Below are positions 35,739-57,741 of a stretch of 64,000 nucleotides of DNA, piece after piece (the first letter of the stretch is position 1; each line of letters opens with the position of its first letter). This stretch comes from [Enterobacter] lignolyticus SCF1 (GTDB lineage: Bacteria; Pseudomonadota; Gammaproteobacteria; Enterobacterales; Enterobacteriaceae). The position numbers and the translations under genes are program-made. The notes under the pieces were generated by a model that did not search any database, had not been told where the DNA came from, and worked only from the letters and a program-made list of their open reading frames with translations. The stretch covers positions 661,753 through 725,752 of the forward strand of contig NC_014618.1 in assembly GCF_000164865.1 (NCBI RefSeq). The letters are read 5' to 3'.

Positions 35739-35932
35739 GAGTTACCTCTGGTTGAGAGTTTACTCACTTAGTCGCGTGTCCACTATTCGCGGGTAGGATC
35801 AATTGACTGTTACTAGAAGTCCAGAGACAAAATCCATGAATTGTTCACCGCCTTTTTATCGCCACTCAAAAAAAGATAACAAAAAGGCCACTCAGGAGAG
35901 TGGCCTAACTGTATGTATTTAATACTTAAATT

Positions 35933-35979
35933 TGGTGGCCCCTGTTGGGTTTGAACCAACGACCAAGCGATTATGAGTC
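35933..35979 (-). repeat. 47-nt 3' fragment of a tRNA-Ile(CAU)/ileX-like gene (anticodon loop to CCA); att-type repeat of the integrative element
   Basis: The minus strand reads GACTCATAATCGCTTGGTCGTTGGTTCAAACCCAACAGGGGCCACCA. This matches the 3' two-thirds of tRNA-Ile2, as I remember ileX (GACTCATAATCGCTTGGTCGCTGGTTCAAGTCCAGCAGGGGCCACCA), with compensatory T-stem changes. No 5' acceptor strand (GGCCCCT) follows, so it is not a complete gene. Confidence 0.6.
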
Positions 35980-36103
35980 ATAAAATAGGCATGTTTCTAA
36001 TCGTTCGCTATTGACGCTTATTGTATTTTTAATTGTCTATAATCAATCGGTTATGATGTTGTTTTTGTTTCTGATTGGTTGTCTCGTCTCCCCATTGTAC
36101 TAT

Positions 36104-43145: not shown

Positions 43146-43160
43146 GTCTAATCCCTTAAA

Positions 43161-43949: not shown

Positions 43950-45793
43950 ACTAGCGGCAATTCAAAACACTTCACCGGTTTCCCATCCTGCATTTCTACC
44001 AGTAACCGTGCAGATTGTGGTTGCTCTACCAGCAATCCCTGTTGGAATTGCCCGAACGACAAATGGGCTTCTTCAATAGCCATCTTTTGCTGCAGTAAAG
44101 TCGTTGTGGTCCATTTCCGCAGCAATACTTTATTGGCATTTGTCGTATTACTCTGTTCCGCCAGGGCACTGATGCTTTGTATTCTCTGCTGTAGCTGACG
44201 CTCAACATTTTCAATCACGCCGTCGAACTGCTGATAGGTATCTGCAATGGTTCTATGGCGCTGCTTGACGAGTTTCGAGTTCCGTTCGGCATGTGTCAGA
44301 AGATGCAACGCTTGCGCACGCACTTTCATGGTAAGGTCCCATTCGTGGATGCGCTCCTCAAGGACATTTTGCTGGTTTTGGATTTTTTGCGTAATTTCCG
44401 TACTGCCAAAGAGCCCACGATCTTTCAGCGATTGAATTTTGTCGCCAGTATTTGAAATATCAGTCAGCAAGTGTGCCTGCAGGGCGGAGAACTGGACTTC
44501 AATATCCTCCAGTTTTTGGCGTATTGCTGGCGAACATTGCTCCTCAATAACCACGGGAGTAATTTGCTGCAAATACTGTATGGCCCCAATGATCTCTGAC
44601 TTGCGCGCGTTATTCTGGAATGCAGAAACTTCACGTACCGCCTCAACAATTTCCGTCAATTTCTTGCTGATATCAGCCAGGTGCTTTTGCGCTAGCACGG
44701 CAGAAGCAACATTCAACAACATACCGGCGTTAACAAGCTGACTGAGTTTGTCAGGATTCAGCAGAACGGCATGTTCTTTAATCCCTTTTTCTCCCAGGCT
44801 GAAGCCTCGGAAACCTGGGCCATCTTTTACACTCGCCAGAGGACCATTAATAATGACCTCCATATATTGATGGCTGGCAATATGTGTAGAGGCCGCCAGA
44901 GAGGGTAATGTTTGCAACAGTGGGCTCAACCGTGAAATACCGGTAATATCCTGCTCCTGCATCGCACCGGTGTTGATACTTTCCGAAGGTGGAATTGTAG
45001 CAACCGTAAGCGCAGGTTGGTGAATATCATGCCCAAAACCCCAGCGTTGATCGTATATGAGAGCAGGCATCGTGGCGGATGATGGCCGGGTGGCAAGCCG
45101 GAACTGGCGGGAGTTTTTTAAGCGAATCCAGGCAATTTGCACCACGCAAGGCAGTGTCACTCGAAACGCGGGGTTTGAGATATCATAGGCCGTATACAAG
45201 CCGGTAATAGCCAGGCCAACTGGCCCTGTTAATACACCCAACACACGCCCGATGCCAAGCCCTGCAATTAAAGGTAGCACTTTGCCTGCTGTCGTTTGAG
45301 CAAGGCCATTGGCAACTAATGCCGCTTTCTGCCAGACGGGGATGTCCAGACTGACAGAGGCGCTAATGCCCATACCACGCAGAATCTGGCGGCGCTCATC
45401 ATCCGACATTTTTTTCCATGATGAGGTAAAGACACAGTCAATAATCAGCGCTTCTTTTTCTTCTACCGATGCAGCGGCCTGAACCTTCATCTTCAGATGG
45501 CTGGCAACGTCATCTACAATTTCGCTGTAGCTGACGCCATTGCGACGAAACAGATTCACGAACGTATTACCACCGAAATGCTGTAACTCCCGTACAAGCA
45601 GGCGCAGAGTTTCTTCATCAGGTATATCCTGGTGTTTGGCGTCCTGTAATACGGCCTTTACGCTGTCTGACATGGAAAAACCAAACTTACCGGTGTTAGT
45701 GACGTAATCGATCAGCAGATCTATATCGCCTTTATCTGCGTTCAACAGCAGTTGAACCAGCGCTTCATCACCCTGGATATCTATCTCACTCAT
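43946..45793 (-). CDS. Large membrane-associated coiled-coil protein (615 aa; N-terminal soluble domain, Gly-zipper hydrophobic segment, long C-terminal coiled coil)
   Basis: A hydrophobic, Gly-rich stretch (ALVANGLAQTTAGKVLPLIAGLGIGRVLGVLTGPVGLAITGLYTAY) is followed by roughly 300 aa of Q/E/K-rich heptad-like helix. No NTPase motifs are present. Confidence 0.45.
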   Translation of the reverse strand: MSEIDIQGDEALVQLLLNADKGDIDLLIDYVTNTGKFGFSMSDSVKAVLQDAKHQDIPDEETLRLLVRELQHFGGNTFVNLFRRNGVSYSEIVDDVASHLKMKVQAAASVEEKEALIIDCVFTSSWKKMSDDERRQILRGMGISASVSLDIPVWQKAALVANGLAQTTAGKVLPLIAGLGIGRVLGVLTGPVGLAITGLYTAYDISNPAFRVTLPCVVQIAWIRLKNSRQFRLATRPSSATMPALIYDQRWGFGHDIHQPALTVATIPPSESINTGAMQEQDITGISRLSPLLQTLPSLAASTHIASHQYMEVIINGPLASVKDGPGFRGFSLGEKGIKEHAVLLNPDKLSQLVNAGMLLNVASAVLAQKHLADISKKLTEIVEAVREVSAFQNNARKSEIIGAIQYLQQITPVVIEEQCSPAIRQKLEDIEVQFSALQAHLLTDISNTGDKIQSLKDRGLFGSTEITQKIQNQQNVLEERIHEWDLTMKVRAQALHLLTHAERNSKLVKQRHRTIADTYQQFDGVIENVERQLQQRIQSISALAEQSNTTNANKVLLRKWTTTTLLQQKMAIEEAHLSFGQFQQGLLVEQPQSARLLVEMQDGKPVKCFELPLV

Positions 45794-45828: not shown

Positions 45829-48744
45829 TTAAAACCCGCGCATCCCATTGATAAATGTTTCAATCACATCACGCACACGGTCATAGACACGTGCCCGCAC
45901 GTTTTTGCGTTCCAGAATCTTCGGCGTCCAGGTCAGCGTTTCTGCCACTTCATCCTCTCGCGGCATCACGTCGGTAAAGAGGTAGTTATCCAGTAAGCCG
46001 GTCAGTTTGATGGAGTCGAGTCGCTCTTCGCTGCACAGGGTAGCCAGCGCCTTACCTTTTTCCTGTTCGACATAGGCTTCAAACACCTGAGTGATATCTT
46101 CGTCATGCGAGGCATGCAGCAAACTTTTTTCAATAAAGTTATCGATAAGCTCACGTTTACTGCGCAGCGTGACGTCGCTGTCGACAATATCCATGATCTT
46201 TTTCTTCTGCTCCTGCTGCTCTTTTGGCGGCATCGCCTGAATGCCTGCCAGCAGACGCAGAATGTAGCCGACGTTAATTTCGTCGCGATGAATCAGCGAG
46301 ACTTCAAAATCCACGTCTTCAAGAATCGAGACTTTCTCTTTACTGGAGTGCTTTTTCACCTTGTCGTGAATATCGAGGTACTTACTGGTGAAATCCGCCA
46401 GCGTCTGGTCCGATAGCGGTTTAGCCGCATCGTCAAAATCGGCAAAGCTTTCGAGGATGTTTTTCAAACGCATCACATCGCGAAATGCTGTTACAAATGC
46501 CAGCTGTGCCTCTTCATCCGGTAAACCGTCCACGCTCTCCACCGTTGGCGTCAGCGCTAACAAACGATCTACAGCGTCCTGATAATCCCCAAAGTACTCG
46601 TCAAAGGGCTTCACCAGCACCACAGAAGAAGCATCTTTGTTCGAGAACAGGGCAATAGCATCGTCGGTCGCTTTCTTCAGATTACGAAAGCAGACAATAT
46701 TCCCGTGGCTTTTCTTTTCGTTAAGGATGCGGTTAGTGCGGGAAAACGCCTGTACCAGGCCGTGAAAACGCAGGTTTTTATCAACATACAGCGTGTTCAG
46801 CGCAGGGCTGTCGAAGCCGGTGAGGAACATATTCACTACCAGAAGAATATCGATGCCTTTCTCTTTGGTGCGCTGAGCAATATTTTTGTAGTAATTGTAG
46901 AAGCTCTTTGAATCATTGGCCGAGTAACTGGTGCCATACAGCTCGTTATAATCCTCAATAAAACTATCCAGATGATCGCGACTTGAGGTGTCAACTTTCG
47001 CCCCCTGCGGCAGGCTGATATCTTCTTCATCCAGCAGGCCGTTTACCGCCTCTTTATCACTTTTGTCCGCTTCATTGGCGGCGTAGGTGAAGATGGTGGC
47101 AATCTTTAACGGCTTGTAATTGGCATCCGCCGCTTGCAGTGCGGCCTGCTTTTCTTTAAAGAGTTTGTAGTAGGTGATCAGCATATCGACTGACCCGACG
47201 CAGAACATAGCGGTGAACTCGCGATTGCGAGTCTTGGCGTTATGATGAGCAAGGATATAGTCGGTGATTTTGCCCAACCGGATGTCGCTTTCCATTACCT
47301 CTTTGGTGTCGATATCTTCCACATCAATATCGATCTCATTGCTGCTCTCTTTGCGCTTGTACGTACCGACATATTCCACGGCAAAGCGCAGAACGTTTTC
47401 ATCCCGGATAGCGTCGACAATCACGTATTTATGCAGGCATTTATCGAACAACAGTTCGGTGGTCTGTTTGACACCGTTGGTGATATTGACGTTATTGGCA
47501 AAGATTGGCGTCCCGGTAAAACCAAACAGCTGAGCATTCTCGAAGAAATTCACGATCGCTTTATGCGTATCACCGAACTGGCTGCGGTGGCATTCATCGA
47601 AGATAAAGACGATGCGCTCTTTGCGCAGGTGTGCGAGCTGCGCTTTATACCCTTCATGGGTGATAGCGTTATTCAGCTTCTGAATAGTGGTCAGGGTCAG
47701 TTTGGTGCTGCTTTGCTTAAGATGTTTTATCAGCGTACTGGTGTTGTTGGTGGTATCCACGCTGTCTTTCGCAAAGCCGTTGAACTCTTTCGCCGTCTGA
47801 TAATCCAGATCCCGGCGATCGACCACAAAAATGACCCGATCCACTTCTGGCATTTCCATGATCACCTGACTGGCTTTGAACGAGGTCAGCGTTTTACCGG
47901 AGCCGGTGGTGTGCCAGATATAGCCGTTCTCCGGCCGTCCCTGCTTGTGGAGATTGTCCTTCACATGGTGGATCATCGCCTCACAGGCGTAAAACTGATA
48001 GGGGCGCATCACCATCAGGCACTTACGGGTTTCGTTCAGCACTGTGTAGTGAGTGATCATTTTGGCGATGTGACACACTTTCAGAAATGCGTCGGTGAAT
48101 TTCTCCAGCGCTTTGAGCGGATTATTCTTTTCATCGGTCCAGAAGAAGGTCTGCTCGAAATGGTTGGCGCGGTTGTTGGCGTAGTATTTGGTATCCACGC
48201 CGTTGCTGATAATAAAGATCTGCACATACTGGAACAGGCCGCTGCCGACCCAGAACGCATCGCGATGATAACGATTGATCTGATTAAAGGCTTCTTTCAG
48301 CCCCAGGCCGCGACGCTTAAGTTCGATCTGCACCAGCGGCAGTCCGTTGATCAGCAGCGTGACGTCGAAGCGAGTTTTGCGTGTGTTTTGCTCGGCGTTG
48401 AACTGCTTCACCTGACTCGTTACCTGAAACTCGTTCTGGCACCACTCCTCTTTATTGATAAAGCTGAGCCATTTCTCGGTGCCGTCATCTCGCAATAACT
48501 GGTAGCGATCGCGCAGGATCTTAGCGCGATCGATGACTTCATTGCCTTTGGTTAGATGCAAAAAAATACGGTTAAATTCGCTATCAGTTAGCGGAGCTTG
48601 CTCCAGCCGGTTGTGAATTTCGATCTGCTTTCGCAGGTTGGCTTTCATACTAGCTTCATCGGTGACATTCACCCGTTCATAGTGCATGCCCACCAGCTGC
48701 TCCACCAGCTGCGTTTCTAACTCGTATTCGCTTTGCGTTGCCAT
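45829..48744 (-). CDS. hsdR: Type I restriction enzyme R subunit (HsdR, type IC/EcoR124-like)
   Basis: It has a PD-(D/E)xK nuclease region, SF2 helicase motifs (TGSGKT, DECH, FTGTPI) and a type-IC-like helical C-terminus. The start is MATQSEYELE at 48744 (AAGG upstream), or 48810 if extended. Confidence 0.85.
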   Translation of the reverse strand: MATQSEYELETQLVEQLVGMHYERVNVTDEASMKANLRKQIEIHNRLEQAPLTDSEFNRIFLHLTKGNEVIDRAKILRDRYQLLRDDGTEKWLSFINKEEWCQNEFQVTSQVKQFNAEQNTRKTRFDVTLLINGLPLVQIELKRRGLGLKEAFNQINRYHRDAFWVGSGLFQYVQIFIISNGVDTKYYANNRANHFEQTFFWTDEKNNPLKALEKFTDAFLKVCHIAKMITHYTVLNETRKCLMVMRPYQFYACEAMIHHVKDNLHKQGRPENGYIWHTTGSGKTLTSFKASQVIMEMPEVDRVIFVVDRRDLDYQTAKEFNGFAKDSVDTTNNTSTLIKHLKQSSTKLTLTTIQKLNNAITHEGYKAQLAHLRKERIVFIFDECHRSQFGDTHKAIVNFFENAQLFGFTGTPIFANNVNITNGVKQTTELLFDKCLHKYVIVDAIRDENVLRFAVEYVGTYKRKESSNEIDIDVEDIDTKEVMESDIRLGKITDYILAHHNAKTRNREFTAMFCVGSVDMLITYYKLFKEKQAALQAADANYKPLKIATIFTYAANEADKSDKEAVNGLLDEEDISLPQGAKVDTSSRDHLDSFIEDYNELYGTSYSANDSKSFYNYYKNIAQRTKEKGIDILLVVNMFLTGFDSPALNTLYVDKNLRFHGLVQAFSRTNRILNEKKSHGNIVCFRNLKKATDDAIALFSNKDASSVVLVKPFDEYFGDYQDAVDRLLALTPTVESVDGLPDEEAQLAFVTAFRDVMRLKNILESFADFDDAAKPLSDQTLADFTSKYLDIHDKVKKHSSKEKVSILEDVDFEVSLIHRDEINVGYILRLLAGIQAMPPKEQQEQKKKIMDIVDSDVTLRSKRELIDNFIEKSLLHASHDEDITQVFEAYVEQEKGKALATLCSEERLDSIKLTGLLDNYLFTDVMPREDEVAETLTWTPKILERKNVRARVYDRVRDVIETFINGMRGF

Positions 48745-48802
48745 CAGTGTGTAGTGCCTTTTATTATTTTGTAGGCCCGGAGTTGGTCGGGCCGGATGAT
48801 TT

Positions 48803-49987
48803 TTATACAAACATTTGCTGGAGCAGGCCTTGCTTCCAGGTTTTCAACTTGTCCAGTTCTGCTTTTTTGACGGCGATTTTATCGTCAAGAGCAGAGAGGA
48901 AGTTGGCGATTTTGCTTTGTTCTTCCAGACATGGATAGAAAACAAATGTTGATGAAATGGTATCCCAATCAGCTCGTGGCATTTTAGAACCTGTTGATTT
49001 ATTAGCTAGATTAATAAAAAAATCAGTCTGAATAAATTGGTACAAATAAGAGTTGTTTATTAAAATCCCCTTGAAAACCCAAATTTCAGAAGAACATACG
49101 CCATCAAAAGTAGCTAATATGTATTTTCTGAGATACGGACGTAGTTTCCCGAAAAGAACATCTCCTTTTTTAAATACATTCTTTATGCTTTGCTGCTGTG
49201 TTGAATCCAACGTGGTTAATAACTGCCCATCCCTCTGCGAAATACAGTCCATTTCGATGCAAGGATAATTTATCCCACTTAGGGGATTGTATTTTTTACT
49301 TTTATTAGAGAATAAAGATGAGATTTCATCGTAATTCCACTCAGGAAACTCTTCCCCATTCTCATCTTTAAACCGTAATTCCTGATTAAAAATCTTCTGC
49401 ATCATGCCTTTTTTGTACTGGCATAGCAGGTCGTACTGCTGGTTCAGTAACGTGATTTTATCGTCAACCGAGGAAAGAAAATCAGCGATTTTGGTTTGTT
49501 CATCATATTGGCAAAGGGGGATTTTTATTTTCCCTATTTCTTTTAGGGATAAAAAAGGTTGGGCTCCACCAGAGGTTAGCTCATGAAATAATTTTTTAGC
49601 ATTTTTTCTTTGAACCTGAAGCAAATAAAAAGGATATATTTTGTTTTTATTAGGCTTTACCAATGCGACATTTTTCAAACTAAATTCGTAATCCACGGTA
49701 TTTAACGCACAAGTGCCCGTTCCAGCGCCAATATTAACGATTAAGAGATCATTTTTTTCTGGATTACATCTTTTATAAATAAATGAATGGGTTAACTTAT
49801 CAAGATAATAGCAATTTTTATAATCGATATAACCATCTTTAACATGGATTGCTGTTAAATAAGGAACCCCTTCACTCGTAGTATCCGGCGTATCGTGAGT
49901 ACCATCAGTAATCTTTGTCGCTAATTTCGACAATAGAGTCATCGTCCATTCTTCTTTAAACCCCCCAAACCGCAACTTCGGCACCAT
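48803..49987 (-). CDS. hsdS: Type I restriction-modification specificity subunit HsdS (two TRDs)
   Basis: 394 aa with the canonical HsdS N-terminus (MVPKLRFGGFKEEW), two variable TRDs and central and C-terminal conserved coiled-coil repeats (QTKIADFLSSVDDKI, QSKIANFLSALDDKI). Confidence 0.85.
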   Translation of the reverse strand: MVPKLRFGGFKEEWTMTLLSKLATKITDGTHDTPDTTSEGVPYLTAIHVKDGYIDYKNCYYLDKLTHSFIYKRCNPEKNDLLIVNIGAGTGTCALNTVDYEFSLKNVALVKPNKNKIYPFYLLQVQRKNAKKLFHELTSGGAQPFLSLKEIGKIKIPLCQYDEQTKIADFLSSVDDKITLLNQQYDLLCQYKKGMMQKIFNQELRFKDENGEEFPEWNYDEISSLFSNKSKKYNPLSGINYPCIEMDCISQRDGQLLTTLDSTQQQSIKNVFKKGDVLFGKLRPYLRKYILATFDGVCSSEIWVFKGILINNSYLYQFIQTDFFINLANKSTGSKMPRADWDTISSTFVFYPCLEEQSKIANFLSALDDKIAVKKAELDKLKTWKQGLLQQMFV

Positions 49988-51594
49988 TACTTATTCCCCT
50001 CCGCCAATGTAAACGGCGAATCAATCCCCAGCGCCTTGCAGAACCCGGCAATAGTCTTATCAATCTCCGCCACTTTCCCTTCCAGATCACGGATTTCCTG
50101 CGCCACGGCGTTGAGATCAATCTCTTCTTCCGCTTCAAAGGTATCGACATAGCGAGGAATATTTAGGTTGTAATCGTTGTTACGGATCTCTTCCAGCGTC
50201 GCGATATGGCTGTATTTCTCGAGTGCTTTCCAGTCGTTGTAGGTATCGGCGATTTTATCGATATGCTCGGGCAACAGTCGGTTCTGGGTTTTCACCTTCT
50301 CAAAATCGTTGCTGGCGTCGATAAACAGAATACTGTCGTTGTGCTTACGACACTTGCGCAGTACCAAGACGCAGGTCGGAATGCTGGTGCCGTAGAAGAT
50401 ATTGGCAGGCAGGCCGATCACCGCATCGATGCAGTTCAGCTTCTCAATCATAAACTGACGAATATGGCCTTCCGCTGCGCCACGGAATAGCACGCCGTGT
50501 GGCAGAACCACCGCCATGGTGCCGTCATCTTCCAGGTGATGGAACATATGCTGTACAAACGCCATATCAGCCTTGCTGGACGGTGCCAGTTTGCCGTACT
50601 GGGCAAAGCGGTCATCGTTCATAAATAGCGGACTAGCGCTCCACTTGGCGGAGAACGGTGGGTTGGCGACGATGGCGTCAAATTTCAGATGCGTATGCTG
50701 CGGGTGTTCCAGCGTATCTTCCTGAATGATTTCAAAATCGGCATAGTGAACCCCGTGCAGGATCATGTTCATACGCGCCAGGTTGTAGGTGGTACGGTTC
50801 ATTTCCTGACCGTAGATTTTACCCACCGATGAGGCTTCACGCTTCACGCGCAATAACAAAGAGCCAGAGCCACAGGTCGGGTCATACACATTTTTGAGCT
50901 TCAGCTTGTGAGTGGTGACGATTTTAGCCAGCAGAGTGGAAACCGGCTGTGGGGTATAAAATTCACCTGCTTTCTTACCTGCGCCTGAGGCGAACTGGCC
51001 GATCAGGTACTCGTAGGCATCCCCCAGAATGTCGGAACTGGCTTCGCTCAGGTTAAAGCTCAGTTTGTCGAGTTCAGTGACGACTTTGCCGATCAATTCG
51101 TTTTTCGCTTTCGCAGTATTACCAAGCTTGCTTGAGCCTAAATCGAGATCTTCAAACAGGTTGCTGAAGTCATCCGCAGAATCAGTGCCCAGCGTGCTCT
51201 GTTCAATGTTGCGTAGGGTAGTGGCGAGGTCTTCCAGAATAAAGCCAGTACCTGTGCCTTTGGGGTCTTTAGCCACACGTTCTGCCATGGTGTGGAACAA
51301 ATCCGTTGGCGGTAGGAAATAGCCTAAAGTTTGGATACTGTCCTCTTTTACCGCATCAACGATATCCTGATACGCCGGATGTTCCGCAGTCAGTTCATTG
51401 TACTGAATGCCATCTTCCGCCAGAATTTTGTTCGCATACGCGACAAATTTTTCTGACAGGTATTTGTAGAAGATAAAACCTAGGCAGTAGTCGCGGAATT
51501 CATCGGCATTCATTTTACCGCGCAGGGTATCGGCGATATTCCACAGGCGGCCTTGCAGTTCACTTAAATTTTGCGCTTCAATCTGGGGAGACAT
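49987..51594 (-). CDS. hsdM: Type I restriction-modification N6-adenine DNA methyltransferase HsdM
   Basis: 535 aa with the N-terminal HsdM_N domain (LWNIADTLRGKMNADEFRDY), an AdoMet motif (DPTCGSGSLL) and the catalytic NPPF (VANPPFS). Confidence 0.9.
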   Translation of the reverse strand: MSPQIEAQNLSELQGRLWNIADTLRGKMNADEFRDYCLGFIFYKYLSEKFVAYANKILAEDGIQYNELTAEHPAYQDIVDAVKEDSIQTLGYFLPPTDLFHTMAERVAKDPKGTGTGFILEDLATTLRNIEQSTLGTDSADDFSNLFEDLDLGSSKLGNTAKAKNELIGKVVTELDKLSFNLSEASSDILGDAYEYLIGQFASGAGKKAGEFYTPQPVSTLLAKIVTTHKLKLKNVYDPTCGSGSLLLRVKREASSVGKIYGQEMNRTTYNLARMNMILHGVHYADFEIIQEDTLEHPQHTHLKFDAIVANPPFSAKWSASPLFMNDDRFAQYGKLAPSSKADMAFVQHMFHHLEDDGTMAVVLPHGVLFRGAAEGHIRQFMIEKLNCIDAVIGLPANIFYGTSIPTCVLVLRKCRKHNDSILFIDASNDFEKVKTQNRLLPEHIDKIADTYNDWKALEKYSHIATLEEIRNNDYNLNIPRYVDTFEAEEEIDLNAVAQEIRDLEGKVAEIDKTIAGFCKALGIDSPFTLAEGNK

Positions 51595-51640
51595 AGTTCT
51601 TCCTGTTGTTTTTCTTCGTCACAAGGGATGACGTAATGAG

Positions 51641-52213
51641 TCAAATCATACCACTGAGCAGGCTCAGGATCTGTTGTTCACTCAGGGCAGCAATCTGCTG
51701 CTGATAAAAGCGTTTTTCTCGCGCCGCCAAATAGAGCCCTCCCATCGCTTTTTGCTGTGCGAGTGGCGGGAGGGAGACGGTAAAATTTTTCAGTTCATTA
51801 ACAGCGATACGCTGTACGACGGTAGAACCCTGTGTGGTCTGAATCCGCTGACGTCGTCCCTCCGGGCTTTCATTGAAATGCCAGAGGAACCACGCGGCAT
51901 CAATCCGGCTGGTATCCACATCCACTTTGACGTAGTTATTACCTAAGATACGCCCGGCATTTTCGGCACTCACACGAACAGCCTTGCCATGGATCAGGCT
52001 GATGACAACATCTCCTTTCTGCGTAATCACAACATCCTGATGTGTTTTAACCCACTGCTCTTTCTCCGCGGACACAAGACCTGACTGCCAGTCATCTACC
52101 AGAAACTGTTCGGTCGCATAGAAACGAAATGCGGGCCCATCTGCACTTTGCTGGATACGGCTGATGTGCGAGCCTGCCGTAAACGTAGCTATTTCCTTGT
52201 AGGTGAGCAGCAT
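51641..52213 (-). CDS. Solo/truncated HsdS-like protein (single TRD plus conserved helix) upstream of hsdM
   Basis: 190 aa: one TRD-like beta-rich domain followed by an HsdS-type conserved helix (LPPLAQQKAMGGLYLAAREKRFYQQQIAALSEQQ). It is half the size of a full HsdS. Confidence 0.5.
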   Translation of the reverse strand: MLLTYKEIATFTAGSHISRIQQSADGPAFRFYATEQFLVDDWQSGLVSAEKEQWVKTHQDVVITQKGDVVISLIHGKAVRVSAENAGRILGNNYVKVDVDTSRIDAAWFLWHFNESPEGRRQRIQTTQGSTVVQRIAVNELKNFTVSLPPLAQQKAMGGLYLAAREKRFYQQQIAALSEQQILSLLSGMI

Positions 52214-52493
52214 TCAAACTCCGAATAAAGATAAATTACATATGCTTTGTGCGGTGTAGCATACTCATGCTGAATAGATTAAATCAAGTAATTTAAATTT
52301 ATTACGCGTGCTCGTGATCAAATTTTTTCTGGTAAGAATAGCGTTATATAGTGCTCAGATATCAGGTTGAACACCAAAAAAATCATTCATAACTTCAAGT
52401 TTTAAAACATGAGAACCCTAAATGGCTTGCTGATGTTAAATGTTATTGAAATTAATGATTTTTATTGGCAAGGCAGTCTTTCATTAAAGGATA

Positions 52494-54815
52494 ATGAGAA
52501 TGCATTTGAGAAAGCTGGCAGTCCGTAATTTCAGAAGGCTGCACGATGTTGTTATCGATCTTGCGTCAGACATTTCAATTTTCGTAGGGGCGAATAACAG
52601 TGGTAAGACTTCTGTCGGTCATGCACTTCAACTATTCACCGGTAAAAGCCGATTCAATATTCATGACTTCAATGCTGAATGTTGGACTGACATTGTCACA
52701 TTTGGAGAAGGGGCGGATGCTGCGTCGCTACCTTCACTGGAACTTGATATTTGGTTTGAAGTAACACCGAATGATGTTCATCGTGTAGTCGATCTTCTCC
52801 CCAGCCTATCGTGGTCAGGTTCTCTGGTTGGAATGCGCGTTGCTTTTTCCCCCATCAATCCTGAAGAAATCCGTTCGCGCTTCCTCGCAGTACGTCAGCT
52901 TGCTATCGATGCCACACCTAAAGATGAAAATGGAACTCTCAAATACGATCCTTCACCTCGTAATCTTTGGGAATATCTTCGCGATAGACTCAATGACGAA
53001 TATGAACTCCGCTATTATGTTCTTGATCCCGCACATTTCAATGCGGAAATGATATCCGAGGAAGGCTATGAGCCTACTCCGCTCACAGGGCGTGATCGAA
53101 GTGGTCGCGAAATACTGAACAGCCTTATCCAAATCAACTTTTTGAATGCTCAGCGTCATCTTTCAGATGGTTCCGGAGGTTCCCGTTCGGAGGATCTTTC
53201 TCGTGTTCTCAGCCGTTTTTACGGACGAAATCTTGAACAAAAAGGTGAAGATTACGAAGCATTAATTGCTTTAGCTGCGTCTGAATCAGCTTTCAATCAG
53301 CATCTTGAACGCGTTTTTGCACCTACGCTGAAAAGTCTGGCGAAACTCGGATACCCTGGACTTTCAAACCCACGCATGATGATTCGTTCGGCCTTAGATC
53401 CGGCGCAGATCATGAACAACCAAAATGGGGCCGTAATACATTACGCGCTGGGGGAGGATGACGGTAATCCTACCCCACCAACACTACCCGATAGTTATAA
53501 CGGGCTTGGATTTAAGAATCTGATCTTTATGGTTGTTGAATTACTCGACATCCACAACCAATGGTTAGCAATAGAAGAGAATCGACCACCGGTTCACCTG
53601 ATTTTTATTGAAGAGCCAGAAGCTCATCTCCACGCACAGTTACAGCAGGCTTTTATACGCAAGATAATGGACCTTCTTGCCATGGAGAGTCAGGAGCTTA
53701 TGCACTACACCACTCAAGTGGTGGTGACTTCTCATTCAACTCATATTCTTTACGAACGTGGTTTTCGGCCGATCCGTTACTTTCGGCGGAAGCGTTCATC
53801 AAATATGTCGGCAACAGATGTGCTCAATCTCTCTGTTTTTTATGATAATACTGATCCTGAAATTCGAGATTTTCTTGAGCGTTACTTGAAGCTGACCCAT
53901 TGTGATTTGTTTTTTGCCGACGGGGCTGTACTTGTAGAAGGCAATGTTGAGCGGCTACTGCTCCCGCAAATGATTGCTACCGCCGCACCTAGATTAAAAT
54001 CCTCTTACCTAACAGTCCTTGAGATTGGCGGTGCTTTTGGCTATCGATTCCAAAAACTAATTGAATATCTTGGGCTTACTACACTCATTATTACTGATCT
54101 GGATAGTGTGTACTGTACCCCTCCGGAACAGGATGCAACAGAAGCTCGAGCAGATGAGTTAGATGGTCTTGCAGAAAATCCGGCTGCAAATGATGATGGC
54201 GAGGAACCTGATGATGATGAGGAAGAACAGGCCAACACAGAAACACCAGGAAAGGCTTGTATTGCCAGTCATCCTGGAGCTATGACCTCTAATCAAACAC
54301 TTCGGCAGTGGTTACCGAAATGTGACACCGTTGTCGCTTTATGGGAAGCAACTGAGGAAATGAAAATACAAAGCCGCACAGCTGAGTGTGACGCTTTGGT
54401 TCGTGTTGCTTACCAGTGCCAGACAGATGTTACATGGAAAGAGGAAACACTGGCACTTGCTGGTCGTACTTTAGAGGAAGCTTTTGCACTTGAAAACCTG
54501 TCTTGGTGTCAGGATGTGAGCTGTAAGCCACTCAAGCTACGCATTGCCAGAGCTGTAAGTATGGACCTACTGCAACTGGCCCAGCGCATTCACAAACGCG
54601 TGCAATCAAAAAGCTTCAGTAAAACTGATTTTGCTCTGAATTTACTTCTTAAAAAACCGGATGAATGGTCTGTCCCAACATACATTGCTGAAGGATTAAA
54701 ATGGCTCGAAGCTGAAATAGCCCCGCCGGAACTAGAAGTTGCAGAAGGTCAGGAAGAGAATGTTCAGGATATGTCCGTCGCTCTGGCTGAAACTGATGGT
54801 GGGAGGGTTGCATGA
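52494..54815 (+). CDS. OLD-family ATP-dependent nuclease (ABC-ATPase N-domain plus TOPRIM; Gabija GajA-like/class 2 OLD)
   Basis: 773 aa. It carries a Walker A (FVGANNSGKTSVG), ABC signature and Walker B region (LIFIEEPEAHLH), a C-terminal TOPRIM-like acidic motif (DGAVLVEGNVERLLL) and an acidic low-complexity insert (DDGEEPDDDEEEQ). Confidence 0.65.
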   Translation: MRMHLRKLAVRNFRRLHDVVIDLASDISIFVGANNSGKTSVGHALQLFTGKSRFNIHDFNAECWTDIVTFGEGADAASLPSLELDIWFEVTPNDVHRVVDLLPSLSWSGSLVGMRVAFSPINPEEIRSRFLAVRQLAIDATPKDENGTLKYDPSPRNLWEYLRDRLNDEYELRYYVLDPAHFNAEMISEEGYEPTPLTGRDRSGREILNSLIQINFLNAQRHLSDGSGGSRSEDLSRVLSRFYGRNLEQKGEDYEALIALAASESAFNQHLERVFAPTLKSLAKLGYPGLSNPRMMIRSALDPAQIMNNQNGAVIHYALGEDDGNPTPPTLPDSYNGLGFKNLIFMVVELLDIHNQWLAIEENRPPVHLIFIEEPEAHLHAQLQQAFIRKIMDLLAMESQELMHYTTQVVVTSHSTHILYERGFRPIRYFRRKRSSNMSATDVLNLSVFYDNTDPEIRDFLERYLKLTHCDLFFADGAVLVEGNVERLLLPQMIATAAPRLKSSYLTVLEIGGAFGYRFQKLIEYLGLTTLIITDLDSVYCTPPEQDATEARADELDGLAENPAANDDGEEPDDDEEEQANTETPGKACIASHPGAMTSNQTLRQWLPKCDTVVALWEATEEMKIQSRTAECDALVRVAYQCQTDVTWKEETLALAGRTLEEAFALENLSWCQDVSCKPLKLRIARAVSMDLLQLAQRIHKRVQSKSFSKTDFALNLLLKKPDEWSVPTYIAEGLKWLEAEIAPPELEVAEGQEENVQDMSVALAETDGGRVA

Positions 54816-56689
54816 CCAGTCGCATTGGTAGCCCTGATACACAGGCAGATATTGATGTTCGTATTTGTCTGGATAGCTCGCCACCACGTTCATTTGTCAT
54901 GGTGGCTGGTGCTGGTTCAGGTAAAACAACATCTCTTATTAAAGCCTTGGCACATTTGGCTGATACCCGTGGTTCTGCTTTACGTCGTGCCGGGCAAAAA
55001 ATATCCTGTATAACGTATACAGAAGTAGCTGTTGGTGAGATTGCCGCTGACGTTGGTAACTCACAGTTATTTCATATTTCAACCATTCATAGCTTTCTTT
55101 GGTCGATCATCCGACCTTTTCATTTAGATATCGCAAAGTGGGTCGTAGCGCGAATACATGAAAAAATAGCTGAAAAGCAAGCCCATTATGATAAGCCCAG
55201 AACACAAGCTAAAACAAAATCTCGTCTTGAAGATGAAATTGCCTATCTCTCTGCTCAACTTGAGTGCATTGATGATATTGATAAATTTATCTACGGGACA
55301 GGAAGTAACTATGCTAAGGGTATTCTAGGACACGATGATATTCTTAAACTCGTCCCTGCTTGTGTTGAGGCTCATCCACTTTTGAGAAGGATTGTAGCCA
55401 AGCGCTTTCCATTTGTTTTTGTCGATGAAAGTCAGGATACCGATCCTGATGTGATCTCTGCGCTTCGAACTATTGCTAATGACAATCCTGACATGTGCAT
55501 AGGATTTTTTGGTGATCCGATGCAGAAAATCTATATGAGCGGAGCTGGTGCTATTCCGTTAAGTGATGGGTGGGCTGAAATTACAAAACCAGAGAATTTC
55601 AGATGTCCGACGTCTGTACTTGGTGTTATCAATTCGATTCGAGCTTCTGGGGATGGCCTCCAACAAATTCGTGGCCGAAAAACTATCGTAGATGGTGTTG
55701 AACAGACTGTATTAGGCACAGTGAATCTTTTCATCTTGCCTTCAAATGTGGAACGAAGTGCCTATCTCACATCTGTCAGACGTTACCTTGCAAATGAAAC
55801 TAGCGATGAACAATGGCTAAGTGATACACGCGAAGGTGATGTTCGTCTGCTTGTTTTGGTGCATCGTATGGCAGCTAATCGACTGGGATTCCCTAATTTA
55901 TTTTCTGCCCTTACTGATAAAGCACCGATGAGCTTGAGTGAAGGGGTGAACGATGGGTCAGCTTGGCCGCTTCGCCCATTTGTCCAGCATATCCTTCCAA
56001 TTTTTGCGGCGGCTCAGGCAAACGATCAATTTCAGATTATGTCGATTATGCGTAACGAGTGCCCAAAGCTGGAGCCATCACGACTGCATGGTCAAGCTAT
56101 GGTGGCAGTCTTAAATGAACTACAACAAGGCATCAATGGCCTGCTTGCACTGTTGGAAGATGGATCGCAAGCAACAGTTCGGGATATATTGCGACACGTT
56201 AGAGACTGTGAACTGCTACGTCTTGACGATCGTTTTGATAATCATTTAAGTGATGAACCTGTGAACGATGGTAATGATGACTTCGAAAATGTTCAGAACT
56301 ATCTAAGATGCAATGCCCATGAACTTTGGGCGTACCGACGCTACCTTTCAGAGGAATCACCTTTTGCCACTCATCATGGTGTAAAAGGTGCACAGTTCGA
56401 GCGAGTGTTGGTTGTTATCGATGATGAAGAGGCTCGCTTCAGCCAATATTCGTATGGAAAATATTTTCAATACATTCCCCTATCCGACAATGATCTAGCC
56501 AATCTTGAAGAGGGGAGAGAGTCAGTACTCGACCGTACTCGTCGTCTTTTTTATGTATGTTGCTCCCGTGCACTGAAAGACTTGGCTGTTGTCATCTTTG
56601 TTCCAGATGTCGCCGTCGCTCAAGCGGCAATTATTGCGCAAAATTTATTCCCGGCATCGGTAATTCTAAGGGCGCACGATCTGGTCTAG
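54812..56689 (+). CDS. UvrD/PcrA-like SF1 helicase (Gabija GajB-like partner)
   Basis: 625 aa with a Walker A (VAGAGSGKTTSL), motif II (VFVDESQDT) and C-terminal helicase motifs (YRRYLSEESPFATHHGVKGAQFERVLVV). Its start overlaps the OLD stop (ATGA). Confidence 0.65.
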   Translation: MTSRIGSPDTQADIDVRICLDSSPPRSFVMVAGAGSGKTTSLIKALAHLADTRGSALRRAGQKISCITYTEVAVGEIAADVGNSQLFHISTIHSFLWSIIRPFHLDIAKWVVARIHEKIAEKQAHYDKPRTQAKTKSRLEDEIAYLSAQLECIDDIDKFIYGTGSNYAKGILGHDDILKLVPACVEAHPLLRRIVAKRFPFVFVDESQDTDPDVISALRTIANDNPDMCIGFFGDPMQKIYMSGAGAIPLSDGWAEITKPENFRCPTSVLGVINSIRASGDGLQQIRGRKTIVDGVEQTVLGTVNLFILPSNVERSAYLTSVRRYLANETSDEQWLSDTREGDVRLLVLVHRMAANRLGFPNLFSALTDKAPMSLSEGVNDGSAWPLRPFVQHILPIFAAAQANDQFQIMSIMRNECPKLEPSRLHGQAMVAVLNELQQGINGLLALLEDGSQATVRDILRHVRDCELLRLDDRFDNHLSDEPVNDGNDDFENVQNYLRCNAHELWAYRRYLSEESPFATHHGVKGAQFERVLVVIDDEEARFSQYSYGKYFQYIPLSDNDLANLEEGRESVLDRTRRLFYVCCSRALKDLAVVIFVPDVAVAQAAIIAQNLFPASVILRAHDLV

Positions 56690-56877
56690 CATGAATTTTA
56701 TACGGACAATAATGGGCAACAACTACTACACGCATGACCGGATATAGTGCTGGTTTTGTTAAAAGACACCTGCATTCTAAAATTTTTCAGACATATATCA
56801 TTTTCCTGAACGCAACATCATTACGGCGAATTCCTCAAGGATTCGCCTTTTTTGTTTTATTTGTCTCAGGAGATGTC

Positions 56878-57741
56878 ATGAGAAATCGGGAAGGCCTGCA
56901 GCCGCTGCAGAACTCACTTTCTGGCTTGCCGCAATGGGTTTCTGAACGCATTTTGCACCAGGTAAGCCAGTTAACCAACTATGTGCCAGTGATCGGTATT
57001 ATGGGCAAAACCGGAGTAGGTAAATCATCCCTTTGCAATGCTCTTTTTGCCGATAAGGTGTCACCTGTCAGCGATGTTACTGCCTGCACTCGCGACCCCT
57101 TATGCTTTCGCCTGCAGGTGGGCGAACATGCTATGACTATCGTCGATTTACCTGGTGTCGGAGAAAGTGGTGCACGTGATATTGAATACGCTGCACTTTA
57201 CCGCAAGCAGCTTCCCCGACTCGACCTGATACTGTGGCTGATTAAGGCCGATGACCGAGCGCTGGCGGTGGATGAGCACTTTTATCATCAGGTGATTGGT
57301 GAAGCATACCGGCATAAGGTGTTGTTTGTTATCAGCCAGTCCGACAAGGTTGAACCCGCCTGCGGTGGTGAAAAGCTGTCCACAGAGCAGAAACAAAATA
57401 TCGGCCGCAAAATCTGTCTGCTGCATGAGTTGTTCCAACCTGTAAACCCTGTCTGTGCGGTGTCGATACGTTTGCAGTGGGGGCTGCGGGTGATGACTGA
57501 ACGGATGATTCGGTGCCTGCCACGGGAGGCCAGTAGTCCGGTGGCGGTACAGCTTAGTGCTCCACTTCGTACCGATGCCGTTAATAAAAAAGCACGTGAC
57601 GATTTTGGTGAAACGGTCGGCTCGGTACTGGACACAGTAAGTTCCATGCCCCTGATACCGGCCCCGGTTCGGACAATTATCCAGGCTGTACGCGACATCG
57701 TAGTATCAGTCGCTCGTGCAGTCTGGAATTTCTTCTTCTGA
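56878..57741 (+). CDS. YfjP/YkfA-family small GTPase (prophage CP4-type)
   Basis: 287 aa from the ATG at 56878 (CAGGAG upstream). It has a G1 P-loop (GIMGKTGVGKSSLCNALF) and a G3 (DLPGVGE), in the position of yfjP in the CP4-57 order. Confidence 0.7.
   Translation: MRNREGLQPLQNSLSGLPQWVSERILHQVSQLTNYVPVIGIMGKTGVGKSSLCNALFADKVSPVSDVTACTRDPLCFRLQVGEHAMTIVDLPGVGESGARDIEYAALYRKQLPRLDLILWLIKADDRALAVDEHFYHQVIGEAYRHKVLFVISQSDKVEPACGGEKLSTEQKQNIGRKICLLHELFQPVNPVCAVSIRLQWGLRVMTERMIRCLPREASSPVAVQLSAPLRTDAVNKKARDDFGETVGSVLDTVSSMPLIPAPVRTIIQAVRDIVVSVARAVWNFFF

What the first reader, a model, noticed from the sequence alone, without database searches (positions are those of the whole stretch)
52494..56689. 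Gabija-like pair: OLD-family ATPase/TOPRIM nuclease with a 4-nt-overlapping UvrD-like helicase
The 773-aa protein has an ABC-ATPase Walker A (GANNSGKTS), a signature and Walker B region and a C-terminal TOPRIM-like segment. The 625-aa partner is an SF1 UvrD/PcrA-type helicase.

This is the gene architecture of Gabija (GajA/GajB) and of class 2 OLD nucleases, which occur in tandem with UvrD-like helicases. Both proteins are larger than canonical GajA/GajB. The OLD protein has an acidic low-complexity insert (DDGEEPDDDEEEQ), so this may be a divergent subtype.
Basis: partly seen in the sequence, partly recalled or inferred. Interest (0 to 1): 0.6.

Follow-up and report, generated by a model that had tools for sequence, protein, structure and literature searches.

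The report
Ordinary Gabija anti-phage gene pair
These two overlapping genes are an intact copy of Gabija, a common and already catalogued bacterial anti-phage system (a nuclease plus a helicase). They sit in a mobile defence island of [Enterobacter] lignolyticus, so the finding is real but ordinary.

Summary
Two + strand ORFs, 52494/52500-54815 (773/771 aa) and 54812-56689 (625 aa), overlap by ATGA.

- **Family match.** They match PADLOC's GajA and GajB models end to end (863 and 778 bits).
- **GajA.** It has an ABC-ATPase (AAA_15) followed by an OLD-type Toprim. Every catalytic residue defined for class 2 OLD nucleases is present and invariant in 119 distant relatives: E480, E484, D533-x-D535, T657-x-E659 and K708.
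- **GajB.** It has all the SF1A helicase motifs, and its model has a UvrD/PcrA/Rep fold.
- **Already public.** The exact proteins are in RefSeq as WP_013364710.1 and WP_013364711.1 from [Enterobacter] lignolyticus SCF1. The pair also occurs at 97.5% DNA identity in three E. coli chromosomes.
- **Size.** The large size is normal for a very large proteobacterial clade of about 740-790 aa nucleases with about 625 aa helicases. That clade is carried on ICEs, conjugative plasmids and islands.
- **Clade-specific feature.** The only one is a 34-54 aa acidic loop in the Toprim region. Its sequence varies and it is probably disordered.
- **Context.** The pair lies next to a type I R-M operon in a CP4-57-like integrative island.

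Rated a new member of a known kind, of low interest.

The parts
52214..52499 (.). AT-rich divergent intergenic region between the type I R-M operon (- strand) and gajA (+ strand). It presumably holds the gajAB promoter.
   Evidence: Sequence read. Imperfect inverted repeats were found. The simple consensus scan found no sigma-70 match here, so the promoter is inferred and not located.
52500..54815 (+). gajA: class 2 OLD nuclease (ABC-type ATPase plus Toprim plus helical domain), 771 aa. The mechanical ORF starts at 52494.
   Evidence: PADLOC GajA PDLC00095, 862.9 bits, end to end. Pfam AAA_15 at residues 3-418 and OLD-like_TOPRIM at 473-537. Identical to WP_013364710.1.
52587..52610 (+). GajA Walker A, GANNSGKT. 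K36 corresponds to BcGajA K35.
   Evidence: K36 is conserved in 117 of 119 distant relatives.
53601..53633 (+). GajA Walker B / D-loop, IFIEEPEAHLH (E371, E372, E374, H378).
   Evidence: Aligned to BcGajA YLIEEPEISLH. Invariant in 119 of 119 relatives.
53727..53741 (+). GajA H-loop, TSHST. H412 corresponds to BcGajA H320.
   Evidence: Alignment. H412 is invariant in 119 of 119 relatives.
53937..53951 (+). Toprim glutamates, EGNVE. E480 corresponds to Bp E400 and Bc E379. E484 corresponds to Bp E404.
   Evidence: Alignments to 6nk8 and to the BcGajA chains. Residue roles are from PMC6755086 and PMC10781630. Invariant in 119 of 119 relatives.
54096..54104 (+). Toprim DxD motif, DLD. D533 and D535 correspond to Bp D455/D457 and Bc D432/D434.
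   Evidence: Invariant in 119 of 119 relatives.
54117..54245 (+). Acidic low-complexity insert (residues 540-582), between the Toprim core and its helical domain.
   Evidence: Present in all 67 close relatives at 34-54 aa, with net charge -8 to -21, about 10% hydrophobic residues, and column identity 0.51 against 0.95 in the flanks. The longer, strongly acidic form seen here is rare among the 119 distant relatives.
54468..54476 (+). TLE motif. T657 and E659 are the candidate metal-B ligands, equivalent to Bp T506 and E508.
   Evidence: The motif pattern and position come after the insert. T or S in 119 of 119 and E in 119 of 119 relatives. Equivalence is inferred, because the pairwise alignment to 6nk8 stops before this point.
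54621..54623 (+). K708, the candidate catalytic lysine, equivalent to Bp K562.
   Evidence: Invariant in 119 of 119 relatives. It lies 49 residues after the TxE motif, against 54 in BpOLD. Equivalence is inferred.
54812..54815 (+). ATGA overlap of the gajA stop and the gajB start, indicating translational coupling.
   Evidence: The same overlap appears in the P. aeruginosa homologues (12322 against 12325 in L007).
54812..56689 (+). gajB: SF1A UvrD/PcrA/Rep-like helicase, 625 aa.
   Evidence: PADLOC GajB PDLC00143, 777.8 bits, end to end. Pfam UvrD-helicase and AAA_19. AF2 model pLDDT 85.6. Top Foldseek hits are UvrD, PcrA and Rep. Identical to WP_013364711.1.
54905..54931 (+). GajB motif I, AGAGSGKTT (Walker A).
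   Evidence: Invariant or nearly invariant in 61 relatives.
55424..55441 (+). GajB motif II, DESQDT (the DExx box).
   Evidence: Invariant in 61 relatives. The validated P. aeruginosa PA14 GajB is also described as having a DESQ motif.
55511..55534 (+). GajB motif III, GDPMQKIY.
56369..56389 (+). GajB motif V, THHGVKG.
56555..56572 (+). GajB motif VI, VCCSRA (arginine finger region).
56825..56857 (+). Intrinsic-terminator-like hairpin (9-bp stem with 5 G-C pairs) followed by TTTTTTGTTT. This is the likely end of the gajAB operon.
   Evidence: It lies before the real start (ATG 56878) of the next gene.

Best explanation
This is an intact two-gene Gabija system (gajA-gajB) carried as cargo of a CP4-57-like integrative island in [Enterobacter] lignolyticus SCF1.

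**Shown here:**
- GajA is a class 2 OLD nuclease. It has an ABC-type ATPase with intact Walker A, Walker B and H-loop motifs. This is fused to a Toprim domain with a complete two-metal active site: E480, E484, DxD 533/535, TxE 657/659 and K708.
- GajB is an SF1A UvrD/PcrA/Rep-type ATPase/helicase with motifs I-VI intact.
- The genes are translationally coupled through the ATGA overlap and end at a terminator.

**Inferred from the characterised B. cereus and P. aeruginosa systems:**
- GajA oligomerises through its ATPase/dimerisation domain, and GajB docks onto it to form a GajAB complex.
- Nucleotide binding by the GajA ATPase keeps the Toprim nuclease in check.
- During infection the complex nicks or cleaves phage DNA, either when nucleotide pools fall or at linear DNA ends that RecBCD does not occupy. 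GajB engages the resulting DNA ends and hydrolyses (d)NTPs.
- The result is a block on phage genome circularisation and replication.

**Speculative:** the clade-specific acidic loop is most likely a disordered surface linker. It might act as a charge-based regulatory element of the nuclease.
For: - **Family match.** PADLOC GajA 862.9 bits and GajB 777.8 bits, both end to end. Pfam AAA_15 plus OLD-like_TOPRIM, and UvrD-helicase plus AAA_19.
- **Catalytic residues.** The Toprim E/E and DxD motifs align directly to BpOLD 6nk8 and to BcGajA. Their roles are documented in PMC6755086 and PMC10781630.
- **Conservation.** E480, G481, E484, D533, D535, (T/S)657, E659, K708, E371, E372, E374, H378 and H412 are invariant in 119 relatives of 33-60% identity. 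K36 is conserved in 117 of 119.
- **GajB.** Helicase motifs are invariant in 61 relatives. The confident model has a UvrD/PcrA/Rep fold and also matches BcGajB 8sm3_B at E=2.4e-11.
- **Co-evolution.** The gene pair keeps its architecture, overlap and lengths in P. aeruginosa (774 and 625 aa, at 74% and 75% identity).
- **Mobile unit.** Zymobacter shares only the 4.2-kb pair, at 92% DNA identity.
- **Defence-island context.** A type I R-M operon lies immediately upstream, Fic/PDC-S04 and JukA-like candidates are nearby, and the backbone carries integrase, DUF3987, YfjJ, DUF932, antirestriction and RadC genes.
- **Experimental support for the system type.** Both Gabija genes and their catalytic residues are required for defence in B. 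cereus and in P. aeruginosa PA14.
Against: - No member of this particular large-format clade is shown here to have been tested. I could not establish whether the validated PA14 system belongs to it.
- Direct sequence similarity to the B. cereus prototype is weak (E about 1e-6).
- The GajA AlphaFold model failed (pLDDT 45). The fold, the oligomer interfaces and the TxE/K equivalence therefore rest on sequence patterns only.
- The two published mechanisms differ: abortive nucleotide-depletion sensing, or non-abortive attack on DNA ends lacking RecBCD. Nothing in the sequence decides between them.
- The consensus scan found no promoter in the upstream region.
Confidence: 0.93

Rival explanations
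1. The pair is not primarily an anti-phage system. Instead it is a DNA-processing or competition module of mobile elements, serving exclusion of rival plasmids or ICEs, or maintenance of the element, with the OLD nuclease and UvrD-like helicase acting on incoming conjugative or transforming DNA.
For: Close relatives sit at the end of a Trb-type conjugative element in P. aeruginosa. Of 101 plasmids carrying relatives, 67 are predicted to be conjugative. The PA14 study reports that Gabija acts on linear DNA ends in general, including transduced cos plasmids.
Against: This is not exclusive of phage defence. The same family is experimentally anti-phage. Here the pair sits with R-M and other defence candidates in an island without conjugation genes.
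Confidence: 0.05
2. The nuclease belongs to a different OLD/AAA15-Toprim system: PARIS (AriA plus AriB), a retron-associated class 3 OLD effector, or a stand-alone class 1 OLD. On this reading the adjacent helicase is a coincidental neighbour.
For: PADLOC AriA matches the ATPase half (165.6 bits, residues 3-419). NCBIfam gives weak hits to the retron Eco8 effector (48.8 bits) and to PtuA (43.1 bits). The best single PDB sequence hit is the class 1 TsOLD structure 6p74.
Against: - All of these hits are partial and far below their thresholds. Eco8 has a cut-off of 250 bits and PtuA 500 bits.
- The GajA models cover the whole protein at 863 bits.
- The Toprim is fused, and there is no DUF4435 partner.
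- No reverse transcriptase ORF lies next to the pair, and the window has no Rfam match.
- The helicase overlaps gajA by 4 nt and co-varies with it across genera.
Confidence: 0.01
3. The locus is a decaying, non-functional copy.
For: A related copy in Cedecea colo has gajB cut after 92 codons. Truncated members also occur in the 90% clusters.
Against: Both ORFs here are full length, identical in length to the clade consensus, and keep every catalytic motif. The overlap, the Shine-Dalgarno sequence and the terminator are intact.
Confidence: 0.01

Closest known systems
Gabija GajA/GajB of Bacillus cereus VD045 (PDB 8SM3, 8J4T, 8U7I; Doron 2018, Cheng 2021, Antine 2023)
   Same: - Same two-gene order, with a class 2 OLD nuclease followed by a UvrD-like protein.
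- Same GajA motifs: Walker A K, Walker B EEPE, H-loop His (H320 aligns to H412), Toprim Glu (E379 aligns to E480), and DxD (D432/D434 align to D533/D535).
- GajB has the SF1A fold.
   Different: - Sequence similarity is only marginal (phmmer E about 1e-6).
- GajA is 771 aa against 578 aa. About 80 extra residues lie before Walker B in the ATPase/dimerisation region. The Toprim-to-helical-domain segment is longer and includes a roughly 43-aa acidic insert. There is also an acidic C-terminal tail.
- GajB is 625 aa against 494 aa. Its model resembles full-size UvrD, PcrA and Rep more than the trimmed BcGajB, which ranks 29th.
- Whether it forms a 4:4 complex, has sequence-specific nicking, or is inhibited by Gad1 is unknown.
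Class 2 OLD nucleases of Burkholderia pseudomallei and Xanthomonas campestris (PDB 6NK8, 6NJV; Schiltz 2019)
   Same: - This is the best Toprim-region sequence match (E=2e-8 to 6nk8). It has identical E-G-x-x-E and T-D-L-D motifs, and the alignment even runs into an acidic stretch after the DxD.
- The two-metal ligand set E/E/DxD/TxE plus Lys is conserved.
- The gene is in tandem with, and overlaps, a UvrD-like helicase gene, which is the class 2 definition.
   Different: - From the published residue numbers (K562 near the C-terminus), BpOLD appears to be a smaller protein, and its DxD-to-TxE spacing is 48 residues against 121 here.
- The biological role of Bp and Xcc OLD has not been tested.
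- BpOLD hydrolyses ATP and is a non-specific nuclease, properties that cannot be read from the sequence here.
Gabija of Pseudomonas aeruginosa PA14 (PA14_60070/60080, PAPI-1; bioRxiv 10.1101/2025.08.30.673261)
   Same: - A Gram-negative Gabija carried on a mobile island.
- GajB has a DESQ motif II, as here.
- Both genes and their catalytic residues are required for defence.
- It offers a plausible functional model: non-abortive attack on linear phage DNA ends that RecBCD does not occupy.
   Different: - I could not obtain the PA14 sequences, so membership of the same clade is untested.
- The P. aeruginosa relatives I did retrieve (774 and 625 aa, 74-75% identity) sit on a Trb-type ICE and not on PAPI-1.
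PARIS (AriA AAA15 ATPase plus AriB DUF4435 Toprim) and the retron-Eco8 class 3 OLD effector
   Same: They share the ABC-type AAA15 ATPase and an OLD-like Toprim nuclease chemistry.
   Different: In PARIS the ATPase and the Toprim are separate proteins and there is no helicase. Retron OLDs sit next to a reverse transcriptase and an ncRNA. Neither arrangement is present here, and scores are far below family thresholds.

Membership tests
Gabija (GajA/GajB) | GajA protein matched by a Gabija GajA profile over its full length | tested here: met
   PADLOC PDLC00095, E=5.9e-260, 862.9 bits, residues 3-750 aligned to positions 1-741 of 752. Twenty-four of the 25 listed hits are GajA models.
Gabija (GajA/GajB) | GajB UvrD-like helicase matched by a GajB profile and encoded immediately next to gajA on the same strand | tested here: met
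   PADLOC PDLC00143, E=2.1e-234, 777.8 bits, residues 1-619 aligned to positions 1-628 of 632. The genes overlap by ATGA.
Gabija (GajA/GajB) | Anti-phage activity that requires both genes | not testable with these tools
   This needs plaque assays. It has been shown for the B. cereus and P. aeruginosa PA14 systems only.
Gabija (GajA/GajB) | GajA-GajB supramolecular complex (4:4 in B. cereus) | tested here: inconclusive
   The GajA AlphaFold model was unusable (mean pLDDT 45), and no complex prediction is available. The matching divergence of the two proteins (74% and 75% identity to the P. aeruginosa pair) is consistent with a complex but does not prove one.
Class 2 OLD nuclease | N-terminal ABC-type ATPase with Walker A, Walker B and H-loop | tested here: met
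   Pfam AAA_15 at residues 3-418, E=7e-41. GANNSGKT, IFIEEPEAHLH and TSHST are conserved in 117-119 of 119 relatives.
Class 2 OLD nuclease | Toprim with the invariant Glu, a second Glu, Gly and DxD (Bp E400, E404, D455, D457; Bc E379, G409, D432, D434) | tested here: met
   Direct alignments to 6nk8 and BcGajA place E480, E484, G510/G511, D533 and D535 on these residues. All except G510 (Gly in 93 of 119) are invariant in 119 of 119 relatives.
Class 2 OLD nuclease | Helical-domain metal-B ligands T-x-E and the catalytic Lys (Bp T506, E508, K562) | tested here: inconclusive
   T657-L-E659 and K708 fit the pattern and spacing and are invariant (T or S, E, K in 119 of 119). No pairwise or structural alignment reached this region. 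The 588-position PADLOC model PDLC00071 does align colinearly across it, residues 335-736 to positions 248-579.
Class 2 OLD nuclease | [quoted passage not shown] | tested here: met
   The definition is in PMC6755086.
SF1A UvrD/PcrA/Rep helicases (for GajB) | Helicase motifs I, Ia, II, III, IV, V and VI, and the four-subdomain fold | tested here: met
   AGAGSGKTT, TYT, DESQDT, GDPMQKIY, NFRCP, THHGVKG and VCCSRA are invariant in 61 relatives. The model has pLDDT 85.6. Foldseek gives E=4.5e-17 to UvrD 2is1 and 1.5e-16 to PcrA 1pjr. NCBIfam scores are far below the UvrD, Rep, PcrA and RecB equivalog cut-offs, so this is not one of those housekeeping enzymes.
PARIS (AriA/AriB) | Separate AAA15 ATPase (AriA) and DUF4435 Toprim (AriB) proteins, with no helicase | tested here: not met
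   AriA matches only residues 3-419 (165.6 bits). The Toprim is fused in the same polypeptide, and the partner is a UvrD-like helicase.
Retron-associated (class 3) OLD effector | Adjacent reverse transcriptase and msr/msd ncRNA, and an NF038234 equivalog score of at least 250 | tested here: not met
   NF038234 scores 48.8 bits. The neighbours are a half-size HsdS on one side and GajB and a GTPase on the other. The window has no Rfam family match.

The most novel reading that the evidence does not exclude
The acidic loop is 34-54 aa long with a net charge of -8 to -21. It is inserted between the Toprim core and its helical domain, and a second acidic tail lies at the C-terminus. Its charge and length are conserved in all 67 close relatives while its sequence is not.

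The loop might act as an intramolecular DNA mimic that occupies the nuclease's DNA-binding groove and auto-inhibits GajA until a trigger displaces it. This would add a layer of regulation absent from the B. cereus prototype. Nothing here tests the idea, and the loop could equally be an inert disordered linker.
Probability: 0.1. Interest if true: 0.4.

Novelty: new member of a known kind. Interest (0 to 1): 0.15.

Why it matters
The locus matters little on its own. It adds one more correctly identified Gabija locus to a defence island and shows that the first-stage reader can recognise the system from raw sequence.

Three points have modest value:
- **Annotation.** RefSeq labels these proteins only as "ATP-dependent nuclease" and "UvrD-helicase domain-containing protein", so a defence-system label is more informative.
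- **An untested major clade.** The large-format proteobacterial clade (about 770 and 625 aa) is very widespread on ICEs, plasmids and islands. I found no biochemical or structural study of it. Its full-size UvrD-like GajB and its acidic Toprim loop are the obvious places where it may differ mechanistically from the B. cereus model.
- **Co-transfer with R-M.** The same type I R-M plus Gabija block is shared at 92-97% DNA identity among Enterobacter, E. coli, Kosakonia, Cedecea and Erwinia. This is a neat example of two defence systems moving together.

Tried and rejected
- **GajA structure prediction.** AlphaFold2 on a 67-sequence alignment gave mean pLDDT 45 and pTM 0.31, because the alignment was too shallow (all sequences at least 68% identical). 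No fold search was run on it. The structural equivalence of TxE and K708 to BpOLD, and the disorder of the insert, are therefore not shown structurally.
- **Profile search of PDB.** The search with the family alignment still aligned only up to the DxD motif and did not reach the helical domain.
- **Placing the validated PA14 Gabija in this clade.** The paper and its supplements give no residue numbers or lengths. The P. aeruginosa relatives I retrieved are on a Trb-type ICE and not on PAPI-1. This remains unresolved.
- **The E. coli plasmid Gabija used in the tmn synergy study.** Its GajA residue numbering (K35, H317) marks it as the small format, so it is not this clade.
- **Alternative classifications.** PARIS, retron and class 1 OLD were considered and rejected on domain architecture and scores.
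- **Plasmid near-identity search.** It found nothing.
- **Promoter scan.** It found no consensus sigma-70 site upstream of gajA.
- **tRNA and Rfam scans.** They found no RNA gene in the window. The tRNA fragment at the island edge was seen only by eye.

Full report
**Observation**

The stop of the first and the start of the second share ATGA at 54812-54815, and a GGGAGG ribosome-binding site lies just upstream. The quoted Walker A (GANNSGKT, 52587-52610) and the acidic run (within 54117-54245) are both present.

The real start of the first gene is most likely the second ATG, at 52500, giving 771 aa. The Shine-Dalgarno spacing favours it, all profiles begin aligning at residue 3, and the identical RefSeq protein is 771 aa. 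Residue numbers below use the 771-aa protein; add 2 for the 773-aa ORF.

**What the proteins are**

- **First protein.** Pfam finds AAA_15 (residues 3-418, E=7e-41) and OLD-like_TOPRIM (473-537, E=1e-15).
- **Second protein.** Pfam finds UvrD-helicase (E=2e-19), AAA_19, and weak UvrD_C.
- **PADLOC.**
  - GajA model PDLC00095 scores 862.9 bits (E=6e-260), aligning residues 3-750 to positions 1-741 of 752.
  - GajB model PDLC00143 scores 777.8 bits (E=2e-234), aligning residues 1-619 to positions 1-628 of 632.
  - Twenty-four of the 25 best listed hits for each protein are GajA or GajB models. The exceptions are AriA, which covers the ATPase half only, and a DRT helicase model.
- **NCBIfam.** There is no equivalog match. 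Hits to the retron-Eco8 effector, PtuA, RecF, UvrD, Rep, PcrA and RecB are all far below their cut-offs. So these are not housekeeping repair enzymes and not a retron or Septu effector.

**Catalytic residues**

- **Toprim core.** phmmer and profile alignments to solved structures place E480-G-N-V-E484 on BpOLD E400...E404 and on BcGajA E379. They place T-D533-L-D535 on Bp D455/D457 and Bc D432/D434. The roles of those residues in two-metal catalysis are documented in PMC6755086 and PMC10781630.
- **ATPase.** K36, E371/E372/E374 and H412 align to BcGajA K35, the EEPE Walker B and H320.
- **Helical domain.** Pairwise alignments stop at the acidic insert, so the metal-B ligands and the catalytic lysine (Bp T506, E508, K562) could not be aligned directly. 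However, T657-L-E659 and K708 have the right pattern and spacing.
- **Conservation.** In an alignment of 119 full-length relatives of only 33-60% identity, E480, G481, E484, D533, D535, E659 and K708 are invariant, and position 657 is always T or S.
- **Colinearity.** A canonical-size PADLOC GajA model (588 positions) aligns colinearly across this region, residues 335-736 to positions 248-579.

I regard the active site as complete. The last three assignments are inferred.

**GajB**

Motifs I (AGAGSGKTT), Ia (TYT), II (DESQDT), III (GDPMQKIY), IV (NFRCP), V (THHGVKG) and VI (VCCSRA) are present and invariant or nearly so in 61 relatives. The AlphaFold model is confident (pLDDT 85.6). Its best Foldseek matches in the PDB are UvrD, PcrA and Rep (E=1e-17 to 1e-14). 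BcGajB 8sm3_B appears at rank 29 (E=2.4e-11). The extra 130 residues relative to BcGajB therefore make this protein look like a full-size UvrD/PcrA/Rep core and not the trimmed Bacillus GajB.

**Is it a divergent subtype?**

In sequence it is far from the B. cereus prototype (E about 1e-6), but it is not an outlier.

- **Homologue counts.** Word-indexed searches give 6633 GajA and 3256 GajB homologues. The best 120 of each are 758-828 aa and 596-644 aa long, at 62-99% identity. They come from Pseudomonas aeruginosa, Burkholderia, Xanthomonas, Stenotrophomonas, Sinorhizobium, Sphingomonas, Citrobacter and others.
- **Exhaustive search.** A search of cluster representatives finds 546 clusters at E<=1e-30. 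The full-length ones have a median length of 742 aa.
- **Where the extra length sits.**
  - About 370 residues precede Walker B, against about 287 in BcGajA.
  - The DxD-to-TxE segment is 121 residues, against a median of 79 in the wider large-format group and 48 in BpOLD.
  - There is an acidic C-terminal tail.
- **The acidic insert.** It is specific to the close clade.
  - All 67 aligned relatives have it, at 34-54 aa.
  - Net charge is -8 to -21, and only about 10% of residues are hydrophobic.
  - Column identity is 0.51, against 0.95 in the flanks.
  - Only 3 of the 119 sequences in the distant-relative alignment, which includes the window protein, have a comparably acidic stretch.

This composition-conserved, sequence-variable pattern is typical of a disordered loop. 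Whether it has a function is unknown.

**Provenance and mobility**

- **Exact proteins.** They are WP_013364710.1/ADO46957.1 and WP_013364711.1/ADO46958.1 of [Enterobacter] lignolyticus SCF1. Their 90% clusters hold 441 and 499 member sequences, from E. coli, Klebsiella, Citrobacter, Raoultella, Yersinia ruckeri, Leclercia and Enterobacter.
- **E. coli.** The 4.2-kb pair occurs at 97.5% DNA identity in 3 of 5426 complete genomes. There it is annotated as ATP-dependent endonuclease/nuclease plus UvrD-helicase domain-containing protein.
- **Shared R-M plus Gabija block.** In those E. coli genomes, and in Kosakonia, Cedecea and Erwinia, the same type I R-M operon lies divergently upstream. Only the HsdS specificity region is replaced.
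- **The pair as the mobile unit.** Zymobacter shares only the gajAB pair, at 92% DNA identity. In P. aeruginosa the 774 and 625 aa pair sits at the end of a Trb-type conjugative element.
- **Plasmids.** tblastn finds relatives on 101 plasmids, 67 of them predicted conjugative.

**Local context**

The island starts at a 47-nt tRNA 3' fragment (35934-35980, - strand, read by eye), and GC falls from about 0.60 to about 0.45 there. It then runs as follows:

1. A P4-type integrase (36177-37511).
2. A Fic protein, matching PADLOC candidate PDC-S04.
3. A DUF3987/YfjI-like gene.
4. A YfjJ-like gene.
5. Three - strand genes, including a PD-(D/E)XK protein and a 615-aa protein with a JukA-like N-terminus.
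6. hsdR, hsdS, hsdM and a half-size hsdS-like gene (45829-52213, - strand).
7. gajAB.
8. A YfjP/YeeP-like GTPase, whose real start is at 56878.
9. DUF932, an HTH/WYL-like protein, an antirestriction protein, and beyond.

This is the CP4-57/CP4-6 type of enterobacterial island, with defence cargo in its variable middle. A strong hairpin plus T-run at 56825-56857 closes the gajAB operon.

**Mechanism**

Shown here are the domain architecture, an intact ATPase, an intact two-metal Toprim site, an intact SF1A motor, translational coupling and a defence-island setting. The rest is inferred from the characterised systems:

- GajA oligomerises and GajB docks on it.
- Nucleotide binding to the GajA ATPase restrains the nuclease.
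- On infection the complex nicks or cleaves phage DNA, and GajB acts at the resulting ends.

Two triggers have been published: nucleotide depletion with an abortive outcome (B. cereus), and linear DNA ends not occupied by RecBCD with a non-abortive outcome (P. aeruginosa PA14). The sequence cannot decide between them. I lean slightly to the second for a Gram-negative, RecBCD-containing host, but this is a guess.

**Rivals**

- An inter-mobile-element competition role is compatible with the ICE and plasmid carriage. It is not exclusive of phage defence.
- PARIS, retron-OLD and class 1 OLD readings fail on architecture and scores.
- Pseudogenisation is excluded by intact lengths and motifs.

**Verdict**

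The finding is correct and well observed, but it describes a standard member of a known and already modelled system, and the exact proteins are already public. I rate it a new member of a known kind, with an interest score of 0.15. The only mildly open points are the untested biochemistry of the large-format clade and the purpose of its acidic Toprim loop.

Noticed in passing
window 35934-35980 (- strand): A 47-nt 3' fragment of a tRNA, running from the anticodon loop CTCATAA to ...GGTTCAAACCCAACAGGGGCCACCA. It lies about 200 bp from the P4-type integrase gene (36177-37511), and GC content falls from about 0.60 to about 0.45 here. It is probably the att repeat marking the left edge of the island. 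ARAGORN and Rfam did not call it.
   Followed up: partly
window 34790-35740 (- strand): An apparent IS3-like two-ORF transposase remnant between rtcR (33015-34586) and the tRNA fragment. It was seen only as ORFs and raw sequence.
   Followed up: no
window 42507-45793 (- strand): Three co-oriented genes lie just downstream of hsdR. The first is 212 aa with no family hit. The second is 262 aa and matches PDDEXK_4 (partial PADLOC PDC-S26). The third is 615 aa, and its N-terminal 230 residues match PADLOC JukA (158 bits) and weakly MsyB/YaaW. They travel with the R-M plus Gabija block in E. coli ET776 and Kosakonia and could be a further, uncharacterised defence module.
   Followed up: partly
window 37480-38112 (+): A Fic-domain protein next to the integrase matches the PADLOC candidate system PDC-S04 end to end (302 bits). 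It also matches SoFic weakly.
   Followed up: partly
window 51641-52213 (- strand): A 190-aa HsdS-like protein with a single target-recognition domain heads the type I R-M operon, which already has a full-length 394-aa HsdS. It is divergent from gajA and is conserved in the E. coli copies, where it is annotated as either 'restriction endonuclease subunit S' or 'hypothetical protein'.
   Followed up: partly
window 48900-49970: Within the otherwise 92-97% identical R-M plus Gabija block shared with E. coli, Kosakonia, Cedecea and Erwinia, the hsdS region does not align at the DNA level. This indicates a swap of specificity domains between hosts.
   Followed up: no
window 56734-57741 (+): The mechanical 335-aa ORF is over-extended. 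The real GTPase gene (YeeP/YfjP-like) starts at ATG 56878, behind an AGGAG Shine-Dalgarno sequence, which matches the 864-nt RefSeq homologues. The gajAB terminator hairpin (56825-56857) lies inside the spurious extension.
   Followed up: yes
L003 (Cedecea colo NZ_SOYS01000003.1) 12313-12588: This close relative has an intact gajA (99% identity), but similarity to gajB stops after codon 92. That copy of the system is therefore probably inactivated.
   Followed up: partly
L007-L010 (P. aeruginosa contigs), genes at about 9032-9769 (- strand): In P. aeruginosa the large-format gajAB pair sits directly after the Trb-type T4SS genes (TrbB...TrbI, DUF2274) of an integrative conjugative element. A conserved 245-aa gene with no Pfam hit lies divergently upstream.
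   Followed up: no
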